A stretch of DNA of 64,000 nucleotides from the NCBI GenBank assembly GCA_963706575.1, contig CAVPNL010000004.1, positions 128,001 to 192,000 of the forward strand, written 5' to 3'. Shown here in pieces: positions 44,301-50,300 of this stretch; position 1 is the first letter of the stretch, and the number at the start of each line of letters is the position of its first letter. The position numbers are program-made. The stretch is from an uncultured delta proteobacterium. Its GTDB lineage: Bacteria > Desulfobacterota > Desulfobacteria > Desulfobacterales > JAHEIW01.

Positions 44301-47300
44301 ATCTTCATGCGCATGCGTTAAAACGATACCCGCCACGCTGGACCGGTTCTGACGTAAATAGTCCATATCCGGGATGACAAAATCCACACCCAGCATATAA
44401 TCTTCGGGAAACATCAACCCGGCATCGATCACAAAAAGCGTGCCGCCGTATTCGAATACCATCATATTCAGGCCAATTTCGCCAAGGCCGCCTAAGGGAA
44501 TAATCTTTAGCATGCGCGCTCATCCATTTTGCTGTTCTCAAAATTGTCACAAATGACACGTCGAACGTTTTCCATTAGCGCTTCTTTTGTCTCACGGGTA
44601 TATGTCGAAGTTCCGATCGGCTTGTGGATAACCATGCTGACACGACCCGGATAGACCCGAAACCTGCCCTTGGGCATTATCGCGCGCGTCCCGGTTATGA
44701 CAACCGGAACAATCGGGACGCCGGAATCAATCGCCATAACAAACCCCCCTTTTTTGAAAGGCCGGATTTTACCGTCCCGACTACGGGTGCCTTCCGGAAA
44801 AATGAGCACCGATACGCCGCTTTTAATCTTGTCGGCCGCCACTTTAAGGCTCTCAAAAGCCGATTCGCGGTGATATCGGTTAATACTGATATAACCGGCC
44901 TTGCGCATGGCGCGCCCGAAAACCGGAATTTTAAAAAGCTCCATTTTGGCCAGCCATCGAAACTGAACCGTAAGATGCCCCAGTAAAACCGGTATATCAA
45001 AATTACTCTGGTGATTGGGCATATAAATATAGGGGCTCGAAGGGTCGATGTTGGACAGTCCTTTAACGCTAACTTTAATCCGGCTGACCATCAGAATTGA
45101 TCTGCCCCATAACCGGGCAATTTTGTGCAAGGGATTGCCCGATCGGACAAAAAACGAAAGCACGATGACCAGTGTTCCCGCCACCAGCGTGGCAAAAAAA
45201 ACCCAGATCGTTATGTATAGGGTCCGAATCATGTTGCGATGTCCAATTTTTCAAATATGGCATCCACAACCTCCATAATCCAGATCCGTTGTTCCCTTGA
45301 GGCATATCCGATACAGGCGCATCGGATTCGGTTTTTGGTGCGAACTAGCAATTCAATGGCAAAACGTTTTTCCTCCAACTCAATGGCAAAGTAAAAGGGC
45401 TGGCAATCGGTATGCGCATGTTGTATCTCCGTCAGCACCTCTGCTGCTAACGGTACCCAATAGACACCGCCCATTTCTACCGGGCCATAAGATGCATCCA
45501 GATATTGCTGAATTTTATGATGATCCTCGGGCCGAATTTCATCGATCACATATTGCTTCATGGCAGATGGCAAATGTTATATGACATGCTGGGTTAGCGC
45601 TCCCCCTTGCGAAATCGGCGGATTGGATTTTTGCACCGCAAGCGCTAAACGCCAAGGGCGCAGGCTTGCCTGAAATGCCGCAGGCGGAACGTGAAAAAGG
45701 GCGTGGAGCATCCAGTATAGATGCATTTAACTACCATATTTTGCGCATACAGGCAAGGTGTAGATAAGGCGACAAGCTCCTATTTTTAATGATAAATATA
45801 ATCTTCTTGGTTCAAAAAAGGAACGGGCGTTAAGGGACGCAGGTTTGAGTTACCATGGAGAATTCAAAAGGCGGGCAGTCGACGTATTCATAAAACAGGA
45901 CCCCCTGCCCCGGCTTCCGAAATCGGATCTCCGGGCAGGGGGTCAAACCGGATTAGGTTTCTTCAACGACAATAGCGCCTTCTTCACAGACCTCGACACA
46001 GCTTTCGCAGCCCAGACATTCTTCGGCGTTGACGGGCACGGATTTGCCATCTTGCATTTCAAAGACTTCAACCGGGCAAACATCCACACATTCTTCACAG
46101 CCAGCGCATTTTTCTTCGTCGACGATAGGATTAAAAGCCATTATATACGTCTCCTTTCGAATTAGGTATTTATTAAGGTGATGGAAACCCACCTTGGATT
46201 CTGCTTAAGGGGAAAGTCAATATACCAATTGGAAAACCGAGTCAAGTCCTGATAACAATTTTTATCTAAATTGAGCGTTTCAAATTTTAAAAAGAGATTA
46301 TTGCATATTATATTCAATGAATTCTGTCGATTTATATTTCTAATATTTGAAAGGCTCAACTTAGATTTTGGTAAATTTTAATAAATTTGTATTTATCAGG
46401 TATTTCGTGTTTCGTTTTTAGTGTTTGGTGTTTAGCGTATCGATGGATCGCCGATCGATGAGCCCGATCAGGGTGTTGCCGGCCTCAGCGCTTTGATCGG
46501 GAATGAGTGGATCGATATTCTGATCTTCGAAAATCGGCTTAAATGTATCCACCGGGCCTTGGCCGGACACCATATATAATGTCAGCCCAACGTTTGAGCG
46601 CTGATCCTGTGGCAGGGGCATATCACCGAAGGGGTCCTCAGCTGCAGCACCCCGGTTTTCGATAAGCTGTTTTATCTGTTTTAAAAACGAATCCCGCCAG
46701 ATGCTGGCGCAATCATCTTTCGTATTCGTGACCGGCAGTCCTTCAAATTGAATAACCTTTTGCGCTGCAGCCAGGTTTTCAATCACGTGATTGAAAACCG
46801 CTGGGCTGCTGGTCACAAAAAGCCCTGAATCAACCGGGTCGCTCATAAACAGGCGCAGCCACGCCTGTAATCGGTCTGGTGCCATATATTCAGTGGGATC
46901 TTCGATTCTGATTTCAGCGTTAAGCGGGGTAACCGGTAAACCATTTTCCCTTTCACCACTTATTTCTTTGAGCAGATCACGCGAAAGCCGATCATTAACA
47001 CCAAGGTCTCGATTTAACTCGGCACTCTGCCGGTCAAATTCCTGGGCAAAATCAAGAAAGACCCGTGCGCAAAACAATGGATCGAAATCCGCTTCGGCAG
47101 ATGCAATCCGGCTGCTTTTTTTTACATCCGAGACAATCCGGGAAACTGTAGATTCACCAAAACAGGGAATGGCCCCCTGCTGCCCCCAAAAAACCGCCGT
47201 TTTGAGGTTCTTACTGTCATCGTGCAGGCCGGCAAACGCCCGTAATTCTTTTGCCATCTTTGCAAGGGTCTCATCTTTCGTCTGCACGGGCACGCGGACC

Positions 47301-50300
47301 TCCATCACATTTTCCTCGATCCAGGGCTGCATCTCTGAAGGTAATTTTCGGCCCGAGGGCTGATAGACGGTAAACTGCTTAAAACAGGCGGCCAATGTTT
47401 CCGCCACCCATTGGGGCACGTAGGTATAAGGGAAATAGATCGGTTTTACCATTTTCGGTTCTCCATCCTAAAGGTGTTCAACTTCAATCAAAATTAGGTG
47501 TCAGTCAACAGGTTCAATGGATCACGGTTCAGAGGTTCAGGGGCTAGATAACTGAAGATAGATTTCAGAGGTCAGATAGTAGGGTCGGCCTCCGTGCCGA
47601 CCTCTGAACGGCGGGCGCAGAGGCCCGCCCTACTTTTGAACCCAGAACCTCTGAACTTAGAACCCTGAACCTTTGAACCTTTAATCCTTAGCTGTGATCC
47701 TGCACGATGATCCCCCGAGATCTGAGTTCGTCTCTGAGTTTATCCGCGAGATCCCAATTTTGCTCTGAGCGGGCCTTATCTCTTTGGCTCAGCAGCCGTT
47801 GAATTTTTGGGTCAGCGTATTCATCAAAAAAATTAAACTGATTCAAGACCGTATCGATACTTCGAAACCCATTAATCATCTTTGAAGCGTCTTGTGGGTG
47901 CAGTTGGTTTTTTTGGACGAGGATATTCACTGTTTTAACAATTGTGAAAACCGTGGCCAGGGCTGCTGAAATATTTAAATCATCATCCATGGCGCTCATG
48001 AATCCGTTTTTAAGATCGTAGAGTAATTGTTCCAGTTCCGGGTAGGGCCGGCCCTGCTTCACACAGCGCAGATTGTACATACAGCGATCCAGCCGTTCAA
48101 GCGAACGCATGGCTTCGTCCAGGCGTTCTTTTGAAAACGAAATCGGTTTGCGATAGTGACTGGACAGCAGCCAAAAACGGATGACCCGGCCGGAATAGCC
48201 CATATTCATTAAATCCGCAATTGTCAGTCCGGCTGAGCGTTCATCCAATTTTTTCCCGTCGATGAGCACCCGATCGCAGTGTACCCAGAACTTCGCCAGG
48301 GGTTTCCCGGTCATGGCGACGGCAATGGCATTTTCATTTTCGTGGTGTGGAAAAACCAGTTCTCGGCTGCTGGTGTGGATATCGAAACATTCGCCTAAAT
48401 ATTTCATGGACATGGCTGCCGATTTAATGTGCCAGGAAGGCCGTACGCTCCCCCAGGTGGTTTTTGTGAAGATACCCCTTTTTAATTCTGAAAGTTTGGA
48501 TCGTTTAAACAGGGTGAAATCCCGCGGGTTTTGTTTTTCATAGTCATCCAGATCAACCGTGGCGCCCACTTTTATCTTGTTGATATCAATCCCGGAAAGC
48601 TGTCCGTAGTCATCAAGGCGTGAAATGTCAAAATATAATGATCGCAGTTTTTCATAGGCAACGCCTTTCGTAACCAGCCTTTCACCCAGGGCCACCATAT
48701 CGTCAACATGATCGCTGGCCTGGGCATAGGAAGTGGCCGGATTTAGGCCTAAAACGGACAGATCTTCTTTGAATTGAGAAATATTGGCTTCCGTAAATTC
48801 CTTCAGATCGACATTGGCTTCTTCGGATCCGCGGATGGCCTTGTCATCAAGATCATTGATATCGGTCAAATGATTGACCGCGTAACCGCGGTTTTCAAGG
48901 TAACGGCATAGCAGGTCGGCAAAGACAATGCGGCGCAATTCCCCCAGATGGATGCGGGTGTGTGCGGTGGGGCCGCAGGAATAAACGTTAACTTTTCCCG
49001 GGGTTCGAGGCTCAAACATCTCTTTTTTGTGAGACAGGCTGTTGAATAATTTCAGGGTAACCGCTTCGCGCACCGCAAAAAGCGAGGTGCTTAAATAACG
49101 CTCGCCGTTGTCCGGGAATAACACGACCAGGGTGCCGGCCGCCATTTTGACTGCAACCCTGCAGGCAGCGACCATGGCCGCACCGCTGCTCATGCCGACA
49201 AATATGCCTTCTTCCCTGGCCAGTCGTCGTGCCATTTCGTAAGCGTCTTCATCGGCAACATTGAGCTTTTGATCCAGGCGTTCTTTTTCAAAGATCTCGG
49301 GGCAATAGGCTTCTTTCATATTTTTTAACCCCTGGATCTTGTGGCCCAGATAAGGTTCCACCCCGATAATCTGGATGGACGAATCGTATTCCTTCAGCCT
49401 TCTGGAAACGCCCATTAAGGTCCCGCTGGTTCCCAGGGTGGCCACAAAAGCGGTAACCTTGCCGTCGGTTTGCTGCCAGACCTCTTCAGCCGTACCATAA
49501 TAGTGAGCCTTCCAGTTGGCTTCATTGTTAAATTGATCGGGGAGAAAATAGGTGTTCAGGTTTTCACGGGCCAGCCGGTAAGCCTCCTCAATGGCTCCAT
49601 CGGTGCCTAAATGCCCCGGCGTTAAAAGGATGTCGGCTCCCCGGGCCTTTAGAATCTTTTGTCGTTCGATGCTGACCGCATCGGACATCACCAGCAGCAA
49701 CCGGTATCCCTTGACCGTACAAACCAGGGCCAGGCCGATCCCGGTATTTCCGCTGGTGGGTTCGATGACGGTTTTTTGCGGTATCAGCTCTCCGGATTTT
49801 TCGCCAGCCTCAATCATGTAAAGGGCGGCGCGGTCCTTGACGGACCCGCCGGGGTTAAAACACTCGAGTTTGGCGAGCATCTTTACAGCGGGATTCGGAT
49901 TGAGTTTTTTGATTTCAACCAGTGGCGTATTGCCAATGGCATCCAGGATAGAATGACCCATACCGTAAACCTATAAGGAGAGTGCGTCCCGCTCTGAACG
50001 GGATTCAAAGTGATCTAAAATGCCTAAAATTAAACAGAAGAATCAATCCATTTTATTTTAATCCTCACGCAAAAAGACAAGCGCGCAAAGATGCTAAGGA
50101 ATAAAAAATAAAACTTTGCGGGCTTTGCGTGAGACCTAAAACTTTAGGCACTTTTGGTCCCTTTGTTGATCACATCTATTATTTTAAGAAATTTCAACTG
50201 CAACAATATTTTTATCCATGCAAACATTGCTTAAGAAATGAAGACACGATCTTGCGCATCGCGGCAAATACCTGATCCTGGGTTTGGGCCGCGTCGATAA

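What a model noticed while it worked through the whole genome (the two positions that open the first line are those of the whole stretch)
45953..49961. Cysteine synthase fused to a CysRS paralog with a decayed KMSKS loop and zinc site
g01381 (757 aa) is a complete CysK-type cysteine synthase (SVKDR lysine, TSGNTG loop) fused in one frame to a full-length cysteinyl-tRNA-synthetase-like body with anticodon-binding domains, while a normal CysRS (g02645) is encoded elsewhere. In the fused body the KMSKS loop reads KLDERS and the zinc-ligand cysteine of WH(I/L)ECSAMS is Ser, so I read it not as a second CysRS but as a new bifunctional enzyme or pseudo-synthetase: cysteine made from sulfide is handed directly to a CysRS-derived module that either ligates it to a non-tRNA acceptor (as MshC does; a route to an unknown low-molecular-weight thiol of Desulfobacterales) or senses tRNA-Cys to gate cysteine synthesis. 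A conserved CysK- [...]
Evidence so far: Pfam: PALP 1-295/295 at aa 5-284 (E 2e-68), tRNA-synt_1e 2-300/301 at aa 316-618, DALR_2, CysS_C; NCBIfam cysteine synthase 366 bits, cysS 347 bits (cut 340) vs 446 for g02645. Alignment with g02645: HIGN->HLGE, KMAKS->KLDERS, WHLECSAMS->WHIKSAAMS, PHHENE kept. Family search: the best 120 clusters (71-100% id) nearly all 756-765 aa with both PF00291 and PF01406, named only 'cysteinyl-tRNA synthetase' or 'cysteine synthase', Desulfobacterales MAGs. Among the 111 of these that are >=740 aa: HxGE in 93, Ser for the zinc Cys in 59, Cys in 7 (45 not matched by my pattern), KMSKS position variable (LDEKS 30, LDERS 13, LDEQA 8 ...; none KMSKS). 0 papers on a CysK/CysRS fusion. 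Context: followed by [...]
(Added by a program. Inside this text positions count along the whole contig: contig position 128,001 is position 1 of the stretch shown here. "Call 12" and the like, gene names such as g00115 and contig names such as C1 are that model's own, and its searches are not shown. The text may have been shortened before it was handed on; [...] marks where a part breaks off. The agent that wrote the report below was given it as the finding of a first reader that could run no searches.)

Follow-up and report, generated by a model that had tools for sequence, protein, structure and literature searches.

The report
Cysteine synthase fused to pseudo-CysRS
A sulfate-reducer gene joins a working-looking cysteine synthase to a cysteinyl-tRNA-synthetase body that has lost its ATP-handling residues but kept its tRNA-binding parts, and this unstudied paralog is common across its bacterial phylum, always beside a normal CysRS.

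Summary
Window 47688-49961 (-) encodes 757 aa: an intact CysK/CysM-type PLP domain joined by a flexible linker to a full-length CysRS-like body reading HLGE for HIGH, KLDERS for KMSKS and Ser for zinc ligand Cys209.

Three corrections:
- The Cys-to-Ser change (with Thr68-to-Asn) marks only this genus-level subclade. 26 of 27 other fusions of the order keep the Cys.
- The fusion is not a rarity of Desulfobacterales MAGs. It was found in 258 of 301 sampled genomes of the order and 160 of 401 of the phylum. All 16 genomes checked also have a standalone CysRS.
- The downstream 344-aa protein and ferredoxin stay together in genomes that lack the fusion, so they are weak evidence of partnership.

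Every bacterial fusion examined lacks the catalytic second lysine of KMSKS, yet keeps the conserved anticodon-domain residues and an invariant CP1 loop. These fusions form one subfamily apart from all canonical CysRS. DPANN archaea carry an independent fusion with canonical motifs.

My best reading (about 0.37) is an active cysteine synthase carrying a non-activating, tRNA-Cys- or cysteine-binding regulatory pseudo-synthetase. An MshC-like ligase is unlikely. No paper on it turned up in my searches.

The parts
47688..49961 (-). Fusion gene, 757 aa (P0001): CysK/CysM-type cysteine synthase plus a CysRS-like body
   Evidence: ORF list and translation; Pfam and NCBIfam. The AF2 model has mean pLDDT 86.5 and pTM 0.60. 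By Foldseek the body superposes on CysRS 8qhp (TMt 0.93) and 1u0b (TMt 0.81), and the N-terminal domain on CysM 2jc3/2bhs (TMt 0.93).
49074..49961 (-). PLP cysteine-synthase domain (aa 1-296): Lys42 in SVKDR, Asn loop TSGNTG 69-74, GTSGT 177-181, MSSG 257-260
   Evidence: K42, D43, R44 and S70-G74 are invariant in 38 of 38 aligned fusions. The Asn loop is kept in 119 of 119 further fusions. Mean column identity is 0.857 over 30 loci of the order.
49017..49073 (-). Linker (aa 297-315)
   Evidence: pLDDT is under 50 at aa 290-300, and pTM is 0.60 although both domains are confident. Mean column identity 0.728.
48108..49016 (-). CysRS-like catalytic and CP region (aa 316-618)
   Evidence: Pfam tRNA-synt_1e 6.8e-76. 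Mean column identity 0.817 over 30 loci. The densest invariant block in 38 fusions is aa 429-511.
48939..48950 (-). HIGH remnant HLGE (aa 338-341; E. coli H37-H40), with Glu in place of the last His/Asn
   Evidence: HxGE occurs in 93 of 111 close clusters. Across the order it reads HxG[E/Q/D]; outside the order HxG[L/V/N].
48546..48566 (-). CP1 loop GATVDLD (aa 466-472), where canonical CysRS has GAR(V); Arg168 of E. coli is Thr here
   Evidence: G466, T468, V469 and D470 are invariant in 38 of 38 fusions. The Arg is kept in 0 of 44 fusions but in 91% of 85 canonical CysRS. PMC5389517 (passages read) assigns the neighbouring CP1 residues 164-167 to recognition of the first acceptor-stem base pair.
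48420..48434 (-). WHIKS (aa 510-514; E. coli W205-C209), with zinc ligand Cys209 replaced by Ser
   Evidence: Ser occurs in 8 of 8 loci of this genus; Cys in 26 of 27 other loci of the order and 8 of 9 outside it.
48333..48377 (-). HTSSRE...PHHENE (aa 529-543). GGGxD is replaced by TSSRE; zinc ligands His234 and Glu238 are kept
48234..48251 (-). KMSKS remnant KLDERS (aa 571-576), with Lys269 replaced by Glu
   Evidence: The Lys is kept in 0 of 44 fusions and in 85 of 85 canonical CysRS. Across the order the motif reads GKK[V/L]D[E/D].
47691..48107 (-). Helical (DALR_2) and C-terminal anticodon-binding domains (aa 619-757)
   Evidence: Pfam DALR_2 3.8e-09 and CysS_C 7.8e-08. R727, R731, D740, R743 and D755, each at least 91% conserved in canonical CysRS, are kept in 35 of 35 fusions of the order.
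46418..47452 (-). P0002, a 344-aa protein of no known family. It is syntenic with the fusion, but a partnership is not shown
   Evidence: No Pfam or NCBIfam hit; 220 relatives, all unnamed. It lies directly downstream of the fusion in 24 of 30 loci, but is also present next to tmk where the fusion is missing.
45953..46141 (-). 62-aa 2x[4Fe-4S] ferredoxin, followed by a terminator-like hairpin at 45912-45896
   Evidence: Pfam Fer4 2.2e-13. It is 75-100% identical over the aligned stretch (full length in 8 loci, cut by the locus end in 5) in the 13 of 30 loci that reach it, and stays beside P0002 in 5 of 6 regions fetched from genomes without a fusion match. Terminator scan.

Best explanation
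The gene encodes an active CysM-like O-acetyl- or O-phosphoserine sulfhydrylase. Its C-terminal CysRS-derived body no longer activates cysteine with ATP. It survives as a ligand-binding module that still docks tRNA-Cys through the anticodon-binding domain and the CP1 loop. In most of the family it also still binds cysteine at the zinc site; in this genus it does not. I infer that this module tunes the fused synthase to the state of the tRNA-Cys and cysteine pool. That would be a covalent counterpart of HisZ on HisG, or of the HisRS-like domain of GCN2. Translation itself is served by the separate canonical CysRS.

Shown: the architecture, the motif states, the conservation, the distribution and the coexistence with a real CysRS. 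Inferred: loss of adenylation, retained tRNA binding and the regulatory coupling.
For: 1. The synthase half is intact and slowly evolving. K42, D43, R44 and S70-G74 are invariant in 38 of 38 fusions. The Asn loop is kept in 119 of 119 more. Its branches stay short even in lineages whose CysRS half is very long-branched.

2. The activation site is disabled family-wide. E. coli Lys269 is kept in 0 of 44 bacterial fusions against 85 of 85 canonical CysRS. In the order the changes are H40 to E/Q/D, GGGxD to TSSRE and S268-K269 to D-E, which are charge reversals where the ATP phosphates sit.

3. The body is not decaying in the order. Mean column identity is 0.817, against 0.857 for the synthase half, over 30 loci, and the replacement residues are themselves conserved.

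4. The tRNA-facing parts are kept. Five of five near-universal anticodon-domain residues are present in 35 of 35 fusions of the order. The CP1 loop GxTVD is invariant in 38 of 38. The model superposes on the CysRS-tRNA complex 1u0b over 472 columns.

5. The zinc and cysteine pocket (C28, W205, H206, C209, H234, E238) is kept in 26 of 27 other fusions of the order.

6. The fusion is never the only CysRS: 16 of 16 genomes checked also have a standalone one at 445-605 bits.

7. It is dispensable. Four of five high-quality genomes of the order without a fusion match have only the standalone CysRS. This fits a modulator better than an essential enzyme.
Against: Nothing biochemical has been tested. 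Loss of HIGH and KMSKS residues is inferred from alignment, and some class I synthetases work with degenerate KMSKS (recalled, for example ArgRS), so weak charging is not excluded, above all for the KMSRS forms outside the order.

Retained tRNA binding is inferred from only six conserved positions in the helical and C-terminal domains plus a loop. The Arg-to-Thr change in CP1 and the W184, G201 and Q241 substitutions, present in all fusions, could equally mean that the acceptor end is no longer bound, or that another RNA is.

The AF2 model gives no fixed contact between the two halves (pTM 0.60, linker pLDDT under 50), so no allosteric path is visible.

In one clade (P0129, P0131, P0132, L084) the body has decayed almost completely. 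That fits a mere scaffold as well as a sensor.

This genus has lost Cys209 and Thr68, so cysteine sensing cannot be the conserved role here.
Confidence: 0.37

Rival explanations
1. The protein is still a bifunctional enzyme. The body charges tRNA-Cys, slowly or under special conditions, with cysteine handed over from the fused synthase. The protein would then channel a reactive amino acid straight into translation.
For: The cysS model score is just over its cut-off (346.7 against 340). The full CysRS architecture and fold are present. The zinc site and anticodon domain are kept in most of the family. Forms outside the order keep KMSRS and HxGN-like motifs. An independent CysK-CysRS fusion with fully canonical motifs exists in DPANN archaea. 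In five small genomes where cysK and cysS are fused or adjacent, that gene was the only CysRS match (5 of 5; completeness not given).
Against: Lys269 is absent in 0 of 44 cases kept. In the order, acidic residues replace the phosphate-binding positions. In this genus Cys209 and Thr68 are also gone. A standalone CysRS is always present (16 of 16). The bacterial fusions sit apart from all canonical CysRS across a branch with 100% SH-aLRT support.
Confidence: 0.15
2. The protein carries out ATP-independent, tRNA-dependent chemistry. The body holds (aminoacyl-)tRNA-Cys. It either presents the 3' end to the PLP domain, so that a tRNA-bound precursor is converted, or it transfers cysteine from Cys-tRNA-Cys to an acceptor, as cyclodipeptide synthases and other aa-tRNA transferases do.
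For: This explains why the tRNA-facing parts and the cysteine pocket are kept while only the ATP site is lost and then re-fixed in a new, conserved state. The flexible linker would let the domains meet. A class I fold that has lost ATP binding and uses aa-tRNA has a precedent in the cyclodipeptide synthases (PMC2922099, passages read).
Against: No enzyme to load a precursor was found: SepRS best 28.5 bits and SepCysS best 55.5 bits, both far below their cut-offs. Only one tRNA-Cys was found, and no second Cys-like tRNA was confirmed. No conserved acceptor-making neighbour occurs outside the order. Fold-type II PLP enzymes are not known to act on aa-tRNA (recalled).
Confidence: 0.13
3. The body is a scaffold or relic. 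It is kept only for folding, oligomerisation or stability of the synthase and has no ligand of its own.
For: The rates of the body vary widely between lineages, and it has decayed almost completely in one clade while the synthase half stays conserved. The gene has been lost in some lineages. No interdomain contact is predicted.
Against: Within the order the body is nearly as conserved as the enzyme (0.817 against 0.857). It has invariant surface loops and anticodon-domain residues that a mere scaffold need not keep.
Confidence: 0.15
4. The body is an MshC-like ligase: ATP-dependent ligation of fresh cysteine to a non-tRNA acceptor, making an unknown low-molecular-weight thiol.
For: MshC is a CysRS paralog (PMC2922099 and PMC9437257, passages read). 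MshC structure 3c8z is a structural match, at rank 48 with TMt 0.85.
Against: The reaction needs the ATP site that is lost here. The MshC model scores 170.1 bits against a cut-off of 485.1. The anticodon-binding domain is retained and conserved. No glycosyltransferase or deacetylase-type neighbours were seen.
Confidence: 0.04

Closest known systems
Canonical bacterial CysRS (E. coli CysS, PDB 1li5/1u0b; TIGR00435)
   Same: Same domain order and fold: Rossmann, CP, stem-contact, helical and C-terminal anticodon domains. C28, W205, H206, H234, E238 and the conserved anticodon-domain residues are kept.
   Different: H40 is Glu, K269 is Glu, S268 is Asp, GGGxD is TSSRE, and R168, W184, G201 and Q241 are replaced. 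In this genus C209 is Ser and T68 is Asn. It is fused to a PLP enzyme, always accompanied by a real CysRS, and forms a separate clade.
CysM / O-acetylserine sulfhydrylase B (TIGR01136 subfamily; PDB 2bhs, 2jc3, 2v03)
   Same: All catalytic motifs are present, as is the short CysM-like loop after the EP(Y)xG strand. It scores over the cysKM cut-off, and TMt is 0.93 to CysM structures.
   Different: It scores below the equivalog cut-offs of both CysM (359.2 against 394.2) and CysK (321.7 against 350.95). Its clade contains only fused proteins. The substrate (OAS or O-phosphoserine) and the sulfur donor are unknown.
HisZ, the HisRS paralog that regulates HisG (recalled; abstracts of PMC9734150 and PMC10795190 seen in the listing)
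   Same: It is a synthetase paralog without aminoacylation that is physically tied to the biosynthetic enzyme of its own amino acid. This is the logic I propose.
   Different: HisZ is a separate subunit, belongs to class II, and lacks the anticodon-binding domain (recalled). Here the link is covalent, the class is I, the anticodon domain is kept, and regulation is only inferred.
CysRS* of some Desulfobacterales (Mukai et al., NAR 2017, PMC5389517, passages read; review PMC9437257)
   Same: It is an extra CysRS paralog in the same order, with changes in the CP1 region that reads the acceptor stem.
   Different: CysRS* lacks the anticodon-binding domain, sits behind selC*/selB*, and is proposed to charge a special tRNA-Cys(UCA). 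The present protein keeps the anticodon domain, carries a CysK domain and sits between tmk and P0002. Apart from the standalone CysRS and the fusion, no CysRS-like match above 42.8 bits exists in this genome.
MshC, the mycothiol cysteine ligase
   Same: It is a CysRS-derived paralog with a non-translational role.
   Different: See the membership test: its model cut-off is not met, and it depends on ATP, whereas the ATP motifs are lost here.
CysK-CysRS fusions of DPANN archaea (P0126 group, named 'cysteine--tRNA ligase' by NCBI)
   Same: Same two-domain order and similar length (760-804 aa).
   Different: They have canonical HIGN, WHLEC and KMSKS motifs. Both halves branch elsewhere in the trees: the CysRS half lies inside the canonical CysRS (96% support) and the CysK half forms its own clade (99% support). 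In the one fused genome tested it was the only CysRS match. This is an independent fusion and probably a true bifunctional enzyme.

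Membership tests
Cysteine synthase CysK/CysM (TIGR01136) | Score over the curated subfamily cut-off | tested here: met
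   365.7 bits against 344.15. The equivalog models are not reached: cysM 359.2 against 394.2, cysK 321.7 against 350.95.
Cysteine synthase CysK/CysM (TIGR01136) | PLP lysine (SxKDR), Asn substrate loop (TSGNTG), phosphate loop (GTxGT) and the Ser of the MSSG motif | tested here: met
   aa 40-44, 69-74, 177-181 and 257-260. The first two are invariant in 38 of 38 fusions. That these motifs define the active site is recalled.
Cysteine synthase CysK/CysM (TIGR01136) | Sulfhydrylase activity with OAS or OPS | not testable with these tools
   Needs an enzyme assay.
Cysteinyl-tRNA synthetase (TIGR00435, EC 6.1.1.16) | Full-length architecture and fold, and model score over the cut-off | tested here: met
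   Pfam tRNA-synt_1e, DALR_2 and CysS_C. The score is 346.7 against 340, marginal beside 445.1 for the genome's own CysRS. Foldseek gives TMt 0.81 to 1u0b and 0.93 to 8qhp.
Cysteinyl-tRNA synthetase (TIGR00435, EC 6.1.1.16) | HIGH signature with His or Asn at the fourth position | tested here: not met
   It reads HLGE. HxGE occurs in 93 of 111 close clusters.
Cysteinyl-tRNA synthetase (TIGR00435, EC 6.1.1.16) | KMSKS loop with the second lysine (E. coli K269) | tested here: not met
   It reads KLDERS. The lysine is kept in 0 of 44 bacterial fusions and 85 of 85 canonical CysRS.
Cysteinyl-tRNA synthetase (TIGR00435, EC 6.1.1.16) | Four zinc ligands C28, C209, H234 and E238 | tested here: not met
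   C209 is Ser in this protein and in 8 of 8 loci of its genus. The feature is met in 26 of 27 other fusions of the order. The ligand list is recalled; the numbering was checked against 1li5.
Cysteinyl-tRNA synthetase (TIGR00435, EC 6.1.1.16) | Conserved anticodon-binding domain | tested here: met
   R727, R731, D740, R743 and D755 are kept in 35 of 35 fusions of the order.
Cysteinyl-tRNA synthetase (TIGR00435, EC 6.1.1.16) | Charges tRNA-Cys | not testable with these tools
   Needs PPi-exchange and aminoacylation assays.
MshC (TIGR03447) | Score over the curated cut-off | tested here: not met
   170.1 bits against 485.1.
MshC (TIGR03447) | Intact ATP-binding signatures for cysteine adenylation | tested here: not met
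   HLGE and KLDERS. That MshC is ATP-dependent is stated in PMC2922099.
CysRS* (Mukai et al. 2017) | No anticodon-binding domain; gene located behind selC*/selB* | tested here: not met
   The anticodon domain is present. The neighbours are tmk and P0002. The definition comes from PMC5389517.
Regulatory pseudo-synthetase of the HisZ kind (by analogy only) | Loss of aminoacylation while tied to the cognate biosynthetic enzyme | tested here: inconclusive
   The physical tie is shown by the fusion. Loss of activity is inferred from motifs only.
Regulatory pseudo-synthetase of the HisZ kind (by analogy only) | Ligand binding changes the activity of the partner enzyme | not testable with these tools
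   Needs enzyme kinetics with tRNA-Cys, Cys-tRNA-Cys and cysteine.

The most novel reading that the evidence does not exclude
The CysRS-derived body docks tRNA-Cys and hands its 3' end to the fused fold-type II PLP domain. Cysteine chemistry would then be done on, or from, the tRNA without ATP. This would be a tRNA-dependent route unrelated to SepRS/SepCysS, carried by a paralog found in about four in ten sampled genomes of the phylum.
Probability: 0.1. Interest if true: 0.9.

Novelty: new variant of a known kind. Interest (0 to 1): 0.62.

Why it matters
Synthetase paralogs that have left translation, such as HisZ, MshC, GluQRS, AsnA and CysRS*, have each revealed a new link between tRNA biology and metabolism. 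This one is common. It was found in 258 of 301 sampled genomes of the order and 160 of 401 of the phylum, a group that includes the main marine sulfate reducers. It is conserved, and public sources name it 'cysteine--tRNA ligase' or 'cysteine synthase'. That naming probably overstates one half.

If the body senses tRNA-Cys or cysteine, it would be a covalent, protein-level tie between the charging state of a tRNA and the synthesis of its amino acid, in organisms that live in millimolar sulfide. If it still charges tRNA, it is a channelled route for a toxic amino acid.

Either way the gradient makes it a natural series for studying how a class I synthetase loses catalysis and keeps binding:
- canonical motifs in DPANN archaea;
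- KMSRS forms elsewhere in the phylum;
- the acidic ATP site in Desulfobacterales;
- loss of the zinc cysteine in this genus;
- near-total decay in one clade.

Cultured carriers exist for experiments: the named records include Thermodesulfatator atlanticus and Desulfocarbo indianensis.

Tried and rejected
- **Complex prediction.** Complex prediction of the CysRS-like part (aa 297-757, alignment A2) with P0002 (alignment A1) scored 0.00 and 0.00 against a mark of 0.32. The verdict was 'no answer', and the controls were not run. It says nothing about binding.
- **Fold of P0002.** The AF2 model is middling (pLDDT 69.7). Foldseek against the PDB gave no match at E <= 0.001. VIA-align wide gave a best Z of 4.4, to GT-B halves, NadR and HUP-type nucleotidyltransferases, which is too weak to name a fold. 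The ESM Atlas gave no usable hit.
- **tRNA-dependent cysteine route of the methanogen type.** SepRS (best 28.5 bits against a cut-off of 380.65) and SepCysS (best 55.5 against 365.25) were not found in this genome, which is 91.8% complete.
- **A second, unusual tRNA-Cys for the paralog.** Default aragorn finds one tRNA-Cys. Three extra Cys/Sec-like candidates from a relaxed run got no tRNA match in Rfam at E <= 0.1.
- **RNA elements around the genes.** No Rfam match reached its gathering score in 45000-51000. The promoter-like count was no higher than in shuffles: 8 against a mean of 7.1.
- **Expression.** Contigs of four RNA-library runs from three studies cover parts of both halves of the fusion gene at 90-99% likeness. 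These are contigs, DNA carry-over is possible and the organisms may be relatives, so this is only a weak hint. Sparse cover of P0002 proves nothing.
- **Gene neighbours outside the order.** They were MurJ, a TrmA-like methyltransferase, Memo, an HhH-GPD glycosylase, an EamA transporter and a MiaB-like enzyme, with no recurring partner.
- **Literature.** Six searches and passages of five papers found no description of a CysK-CysRS fusion. Subscription journals are not covered. Only one supplement was searched, that of PMC5389517; its figures, including the CysRS tree, could not be seen.

Full report
**What is there**

The window carries one uninterrupted ATG ORF at 47688..49961 on the minus strand, 757 aa (P0001).

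- Pfam finds a whole PALP domain (aa 5-284, 4.8e-68), then tRNA-synt_1e (316-618, 6.8e-76), DALR_2 (654-706) and CysS_C (718-756).
- NCBIfam gives cysKM 365.7 bits (cut-off 344.15), cysM 359.2 (394.2), cysK 321.7 (350.95), cysS 346.7 (340) and MshC 170.1 (485.1).
- An AF2 model built on 38 fusions has mean pLDDT 86.5 but pTM 0.60, with pLDDT under 50 at aa 290-300. It shows two confident domains on a flexible linker.
- By Foldseek the C-terminal body superposes on CysRS (8qhp TMt 0.93; the tRNA complex 1u0b TMt 0.81 over 472 columns). The N-terminal domain superposes on CysM (2jc3, 2bhs, TMt 0.93). MshC comes only at rank 48.

**Motifs**

An HMMER alignment with E. coli CysRS (1li5) fixes the numbering.

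| P0001 | E. coli CysRS | State |
|---|---|---|
| C329 | C28 | kept |
| HLGE 338-341 | H37-I-G-H40 | H40 is Glu |
| N369 | T68 | changed |
| T468 | R168 | changed |
| WHIKS 510-514 | W205-H-I-E-C209 | C209 is Ser |
| HTSSRE 529-534 | HGGGSD | changed |
| PHHENE 538-543 | holds H234 and E238 | kept |
| KLDERS 571-576 | KMSKS 266-270 | K269 is Glu |

In the synthase half, SVKDR, TSGNTG, GTSGT and MSSG are all in place.

**The genome has the normal enzymes too**

- A standalone CysRS scores 445.1 bits on another contig. Apart from it and the fusion itself (353.2 bits), no other CysRS-like match exceeds 42.8 bits.
- A standalone CysK (433 bits) sits beside a CysE-like gene (173.6 bits, under its cut-off of 210.65).
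- SepRS and SepCysS were not found.
- aragorn finds 43 tRNAs with a single tRNA-Cys. Extra candidates from a relaxed run were not confirmed by Rfam.

**Distribution**

| Sample | Genomes with a full-length match | High-quality genomes | Genera |
|---|---|---|---|
| Order (E <= 1e-150) | 258 of 301 | 202 of 221 | 137 of 155 |
| Phylum (E <= 1e-130) | 160 of 401 | 141 of 339 | 99 of 255 |

- In the phylum sample the distribution is patchy by family.
- Public names for relatives include Thermodesulfatator atlanticus, Candidatus Desulfofervidaceae, Syntrophobacter sp. DG_60, Desulfocarbo indianensis and Desulfatiglandales. All are annotated as cysteine--tRNA ligase.
- The fusion is thus a common gene of the phylum and nearly a core gene of the order.
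- It is never alone. Five of five complete genomes of the order carry a standalone CysRS at 566-605 bits beside a fused domain at 277-374 bits. Ten of ten complete or near-complete genomes outside the order carry one at 535-598 bits beside a fused domain at 237-457 bits, split in one genome. With the window's own genome that makes 16 of 16.
- It can be lost. Of five high-quality genomes of the order without a match, four have only the standalone CysRS. The fifth has two partial matches.

**Which changes belong to the family and which to this genus**

I aligned three sets: 85 canonical CysRS (70 cluster representatives and 15 standalone genes from the same genomes), 35 fusions of the order, and 9 from outside it. 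One out-of-order locus, L071, was dropped because its longest ORF was the wrong frame. I then looked at the 72 positions that are at least 90% conserved in the canonical set.

Lost in every fusion (0 of 44 kept):
- K269 of KMSKS
- R168
- W184
- G201
- Q241

Kept in 35 of 35 fusions of the order:
- all five conserved residues of the C-terminal anticodon domain (R727, R731, D740, R743, D755)
- D661

Kept in nearly all fusions:
- C28, W205, H206 and H234

Specific to the order:
- H40 to E/Q/D
- GGGxD to TSSRE
- KMSKS to GKK[V/L]D[E/D]

These are acidic residues at the places that hold the ATP phosphates and ribose, and they are conserved in their new state.

Specific to this genus-level subclade:
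- C209 to Ser
- T68 to Asn
- E208 to Lys

These occur in 8 of 8 loci of the genus, whereas 26 of 27 other loci of the order keep Cys209, as do 8 of 9 outside it. T68N occurs in 94. All the Cys forms lie at the low-identity end of the list.

**Selection**

Over 30 loci of the order the mean column identity is as follows.

| Region | Mean column identity |
|---|---|
| Synthase domain | 0.857 |
| CysRS-like catalytic and CP region | 0.817 |
| DALR_2 | 0.729 |
| CysS_C | 0.674 |

In a 38-sequence alignment that reaches across the phylum, the densest run of invariant residues in the body lies in the CP region (aa 429-511). It includes the loop G466-x-T468-V469-D470. Mukai et al. (PMC5389517, passages read) assign the adjacent CP1 residues 164-167 of a deltaproteobacterial CysRS to reading the first acceptor-stem base pair.

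The body is therefore under purifying selection in a changed state, not drifting. One clade is the exception (P0129, P0131, P0132, L084). There even C28, HIGH and W205-H206 are gone and branches are very long, while the synthase half stays short-branched.

**Origin**

A quick IQ-TREE of 84 CysRS domains was used; the careful search did not finish, support is SH-aLRT and the root is at the midpoint.
- It separates all canonical CysRS, all standalone CysRS and the DPANN fusions from all bacterial fusions by a branch with 100% support.
- The fusions of the order form a clade with 99% support.
- The DPANN fusions form a clade with 96% support that lies inside the canonical CysRS.

A FastTree of 61 synthase domains puts the bacterial fusions in one clade (99% support). 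The DPANN fusions fall in another (99%), together with a standalone CysK.

The two-domain architecture therefore arose at least twice. The DPANN version has fully canonical motifs. In five small archaeal or candidate-phylum genomes with cysK and cysS fused or adjacent, that gene was the only CysRS match. It lay in a single 804-aa frame in one genome and in separate frames in four. Completeness of these genomes is not given. That version is probably a true bifunctional enzyme, and it shows that coupling cysteine synthesis to CysRS pays off.

**The neighbours**

- P0002 (344 aa) has no Pfam or NCBIfam family. It has 220 unnamed relatives, an AF2 model of middling confidence and no convincing fold match.
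- It was found in 238 of 301 genomes of the order. It lies directly downstream of the fusion in 24 of 30 loci. Of the six misses, four are contig ends, one has the ferredoxin directly after the fusion, and one has neither within 1.5 kb.
- It evolves much faster than the fusion: about 30% identity across the order, against 65-70%.
- The ferredoxin follows in 13 of the 30 loci; most others are cut off by the 1.5-kb flank.
- In genomes without a fusion match, the P0002-ferredoxin pair is still there in five of six regions fetched. In the sixth (G059) P0002 is there but the ferredoxin was not seen. In the three regions whose upstream ORF I checked (G059, G139, G072), P0002 lies directly behind tmk. 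The local order is SurE-Tmk-[fusion]-P0002-ferredoxin.
- An HMM of P0002 finds nothing beside the fusion in 10 of 10 loci outside the order, where the neighbours are unrelated housekeeping genes.

The pair is thus conserved synteny in a housekeeping stretch. A functional tie to the fusion is possible but not indicated.

**Mechanism**

The constant in every lineage is an intact CysM-like enzyme. The variable part is a CysRS body that:
- lost the catalytic lysine at the base of the bacterial subfamily;
- in the order acquired a conserved acidic ATP pocket;
- kept the anticodon domain and a family-specific CP1 loop;
- mostly kept the zinc-thiolate pocket.

Cysteine activation is the one function that all of these changes speak against. 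tRNA-Cys binding, and in most lineages cysteine binding, are the functions they leave standing.

The simplest model is a ligand-binding pseudo-synthetase that reports the tRNA-Cys or cysteine state to the fused synthase. Known parallels, recalled, are HisZ on HisG, the HisRS-like domain of GCN2, and T-box control of cysteine genes by uncharged tRNA-Cys in Firmicutes.

| Reading | My odds |
|---|---|
| Regulatory pseudo-synthetase on an active synthase | 0.37 |
| Still-charging bifunctional enzyme | 0.15 (lower for this genus) |
| ATP-independent tRNA-dependent chemistry | 0.13 |
| Scaffold or relic | 0.15 |
| MshC-like ligase | 0.04 |
| Something else | remainder |

All functional steps are inference. 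No assay exists.

**Literature**

Six full-text searches and passages of PMC2922099, PMC5424206, PMC5388404, PMC9437257 and PMC5389517 mention no CysK-CysRS fusion. The supplement text of PMC5389517 has no 'CysK', 'cysteine synthase' or 'fused'. The known extra CysRS of Desulfobacterales, CysRS*, is a different protein: it has no anticodon domain and lies behind selC*/selB*. Subscription journals and figures were out of reach.

**Verdict**

This is a real, widespread and conserved paralog of unknown function. It is a new variant among non-translational synthetase paralogs.

Noticed in passing
G000:C15:118432-118505 and G000:C3:141925-142022 (outside the window): The genome carries a tRNA-Pyl(CUA) call by aragorn and a tRNA-Sec (Rfam 75.2 bits), so it may decode both UAG as pyrrolysine and UGA as selenocysteine.
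   Followed up: partly
window 47453-47687 and 46174-46310: The spacers after the fusion and after P0002 hold short GGTTCA/TGAACC-type repeats and two GC-rich hairpins. RNA-library contigs pile up there (summed depth up to 86 and 41) and run on into unlike sequence, which suggests a repeat family shared with other places or organisms.
   Followed up: no
window 45953-47452; loci L087-L092: P0002 and the small ferredoxin form a pair of their own. In genomes without a fusion match they were still adjacent in five of six regions fetched, and P0002 lay directly behind tmk in the three regions whose upstream gene was checked. P0002 has no known family or fold match.
   Followed up: partly
L001 (G000:C6:450676-452067), against L054-L058: The order has two kinds of standalone CysRS. 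The window genome's kind (HIGN, VHHTNE, KMAKS) was found in only 76 of 301 genomes at E <= 1e-120 and sits in a different canonical clade from the HIGH/KMSKS kind of the other genomes. This looks like replacement by a foreign copy.
   Followed up: partly
L073/L074 (G316:C1:2737672-2739059): In one complete genome outside the order the fusion is split into a 704-aa frame and a 211-aa frame, with a TGA inside the match. It may be a frameshift, a pseudogene or a read-through codon.
   Followed up: no
window 45229-45573 (-): A 114-aa ORF between the ferredoxin and the PlsC-type acyltransferase has no Pfam or NCBIfam family.
   Followed up: no
L105-L108, L112 (Bdellovibrionales-labelled MAGs, Moranbacteria, Bathyarchaeia): cysK and cysS lie fused or directly adjacent in several small-genome lineages outside the phylum. 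In four of the five genomes tested the CysRS frame was separate (448-500 aa), so there the genes are adjacent and not fused.
   Followed up: partly
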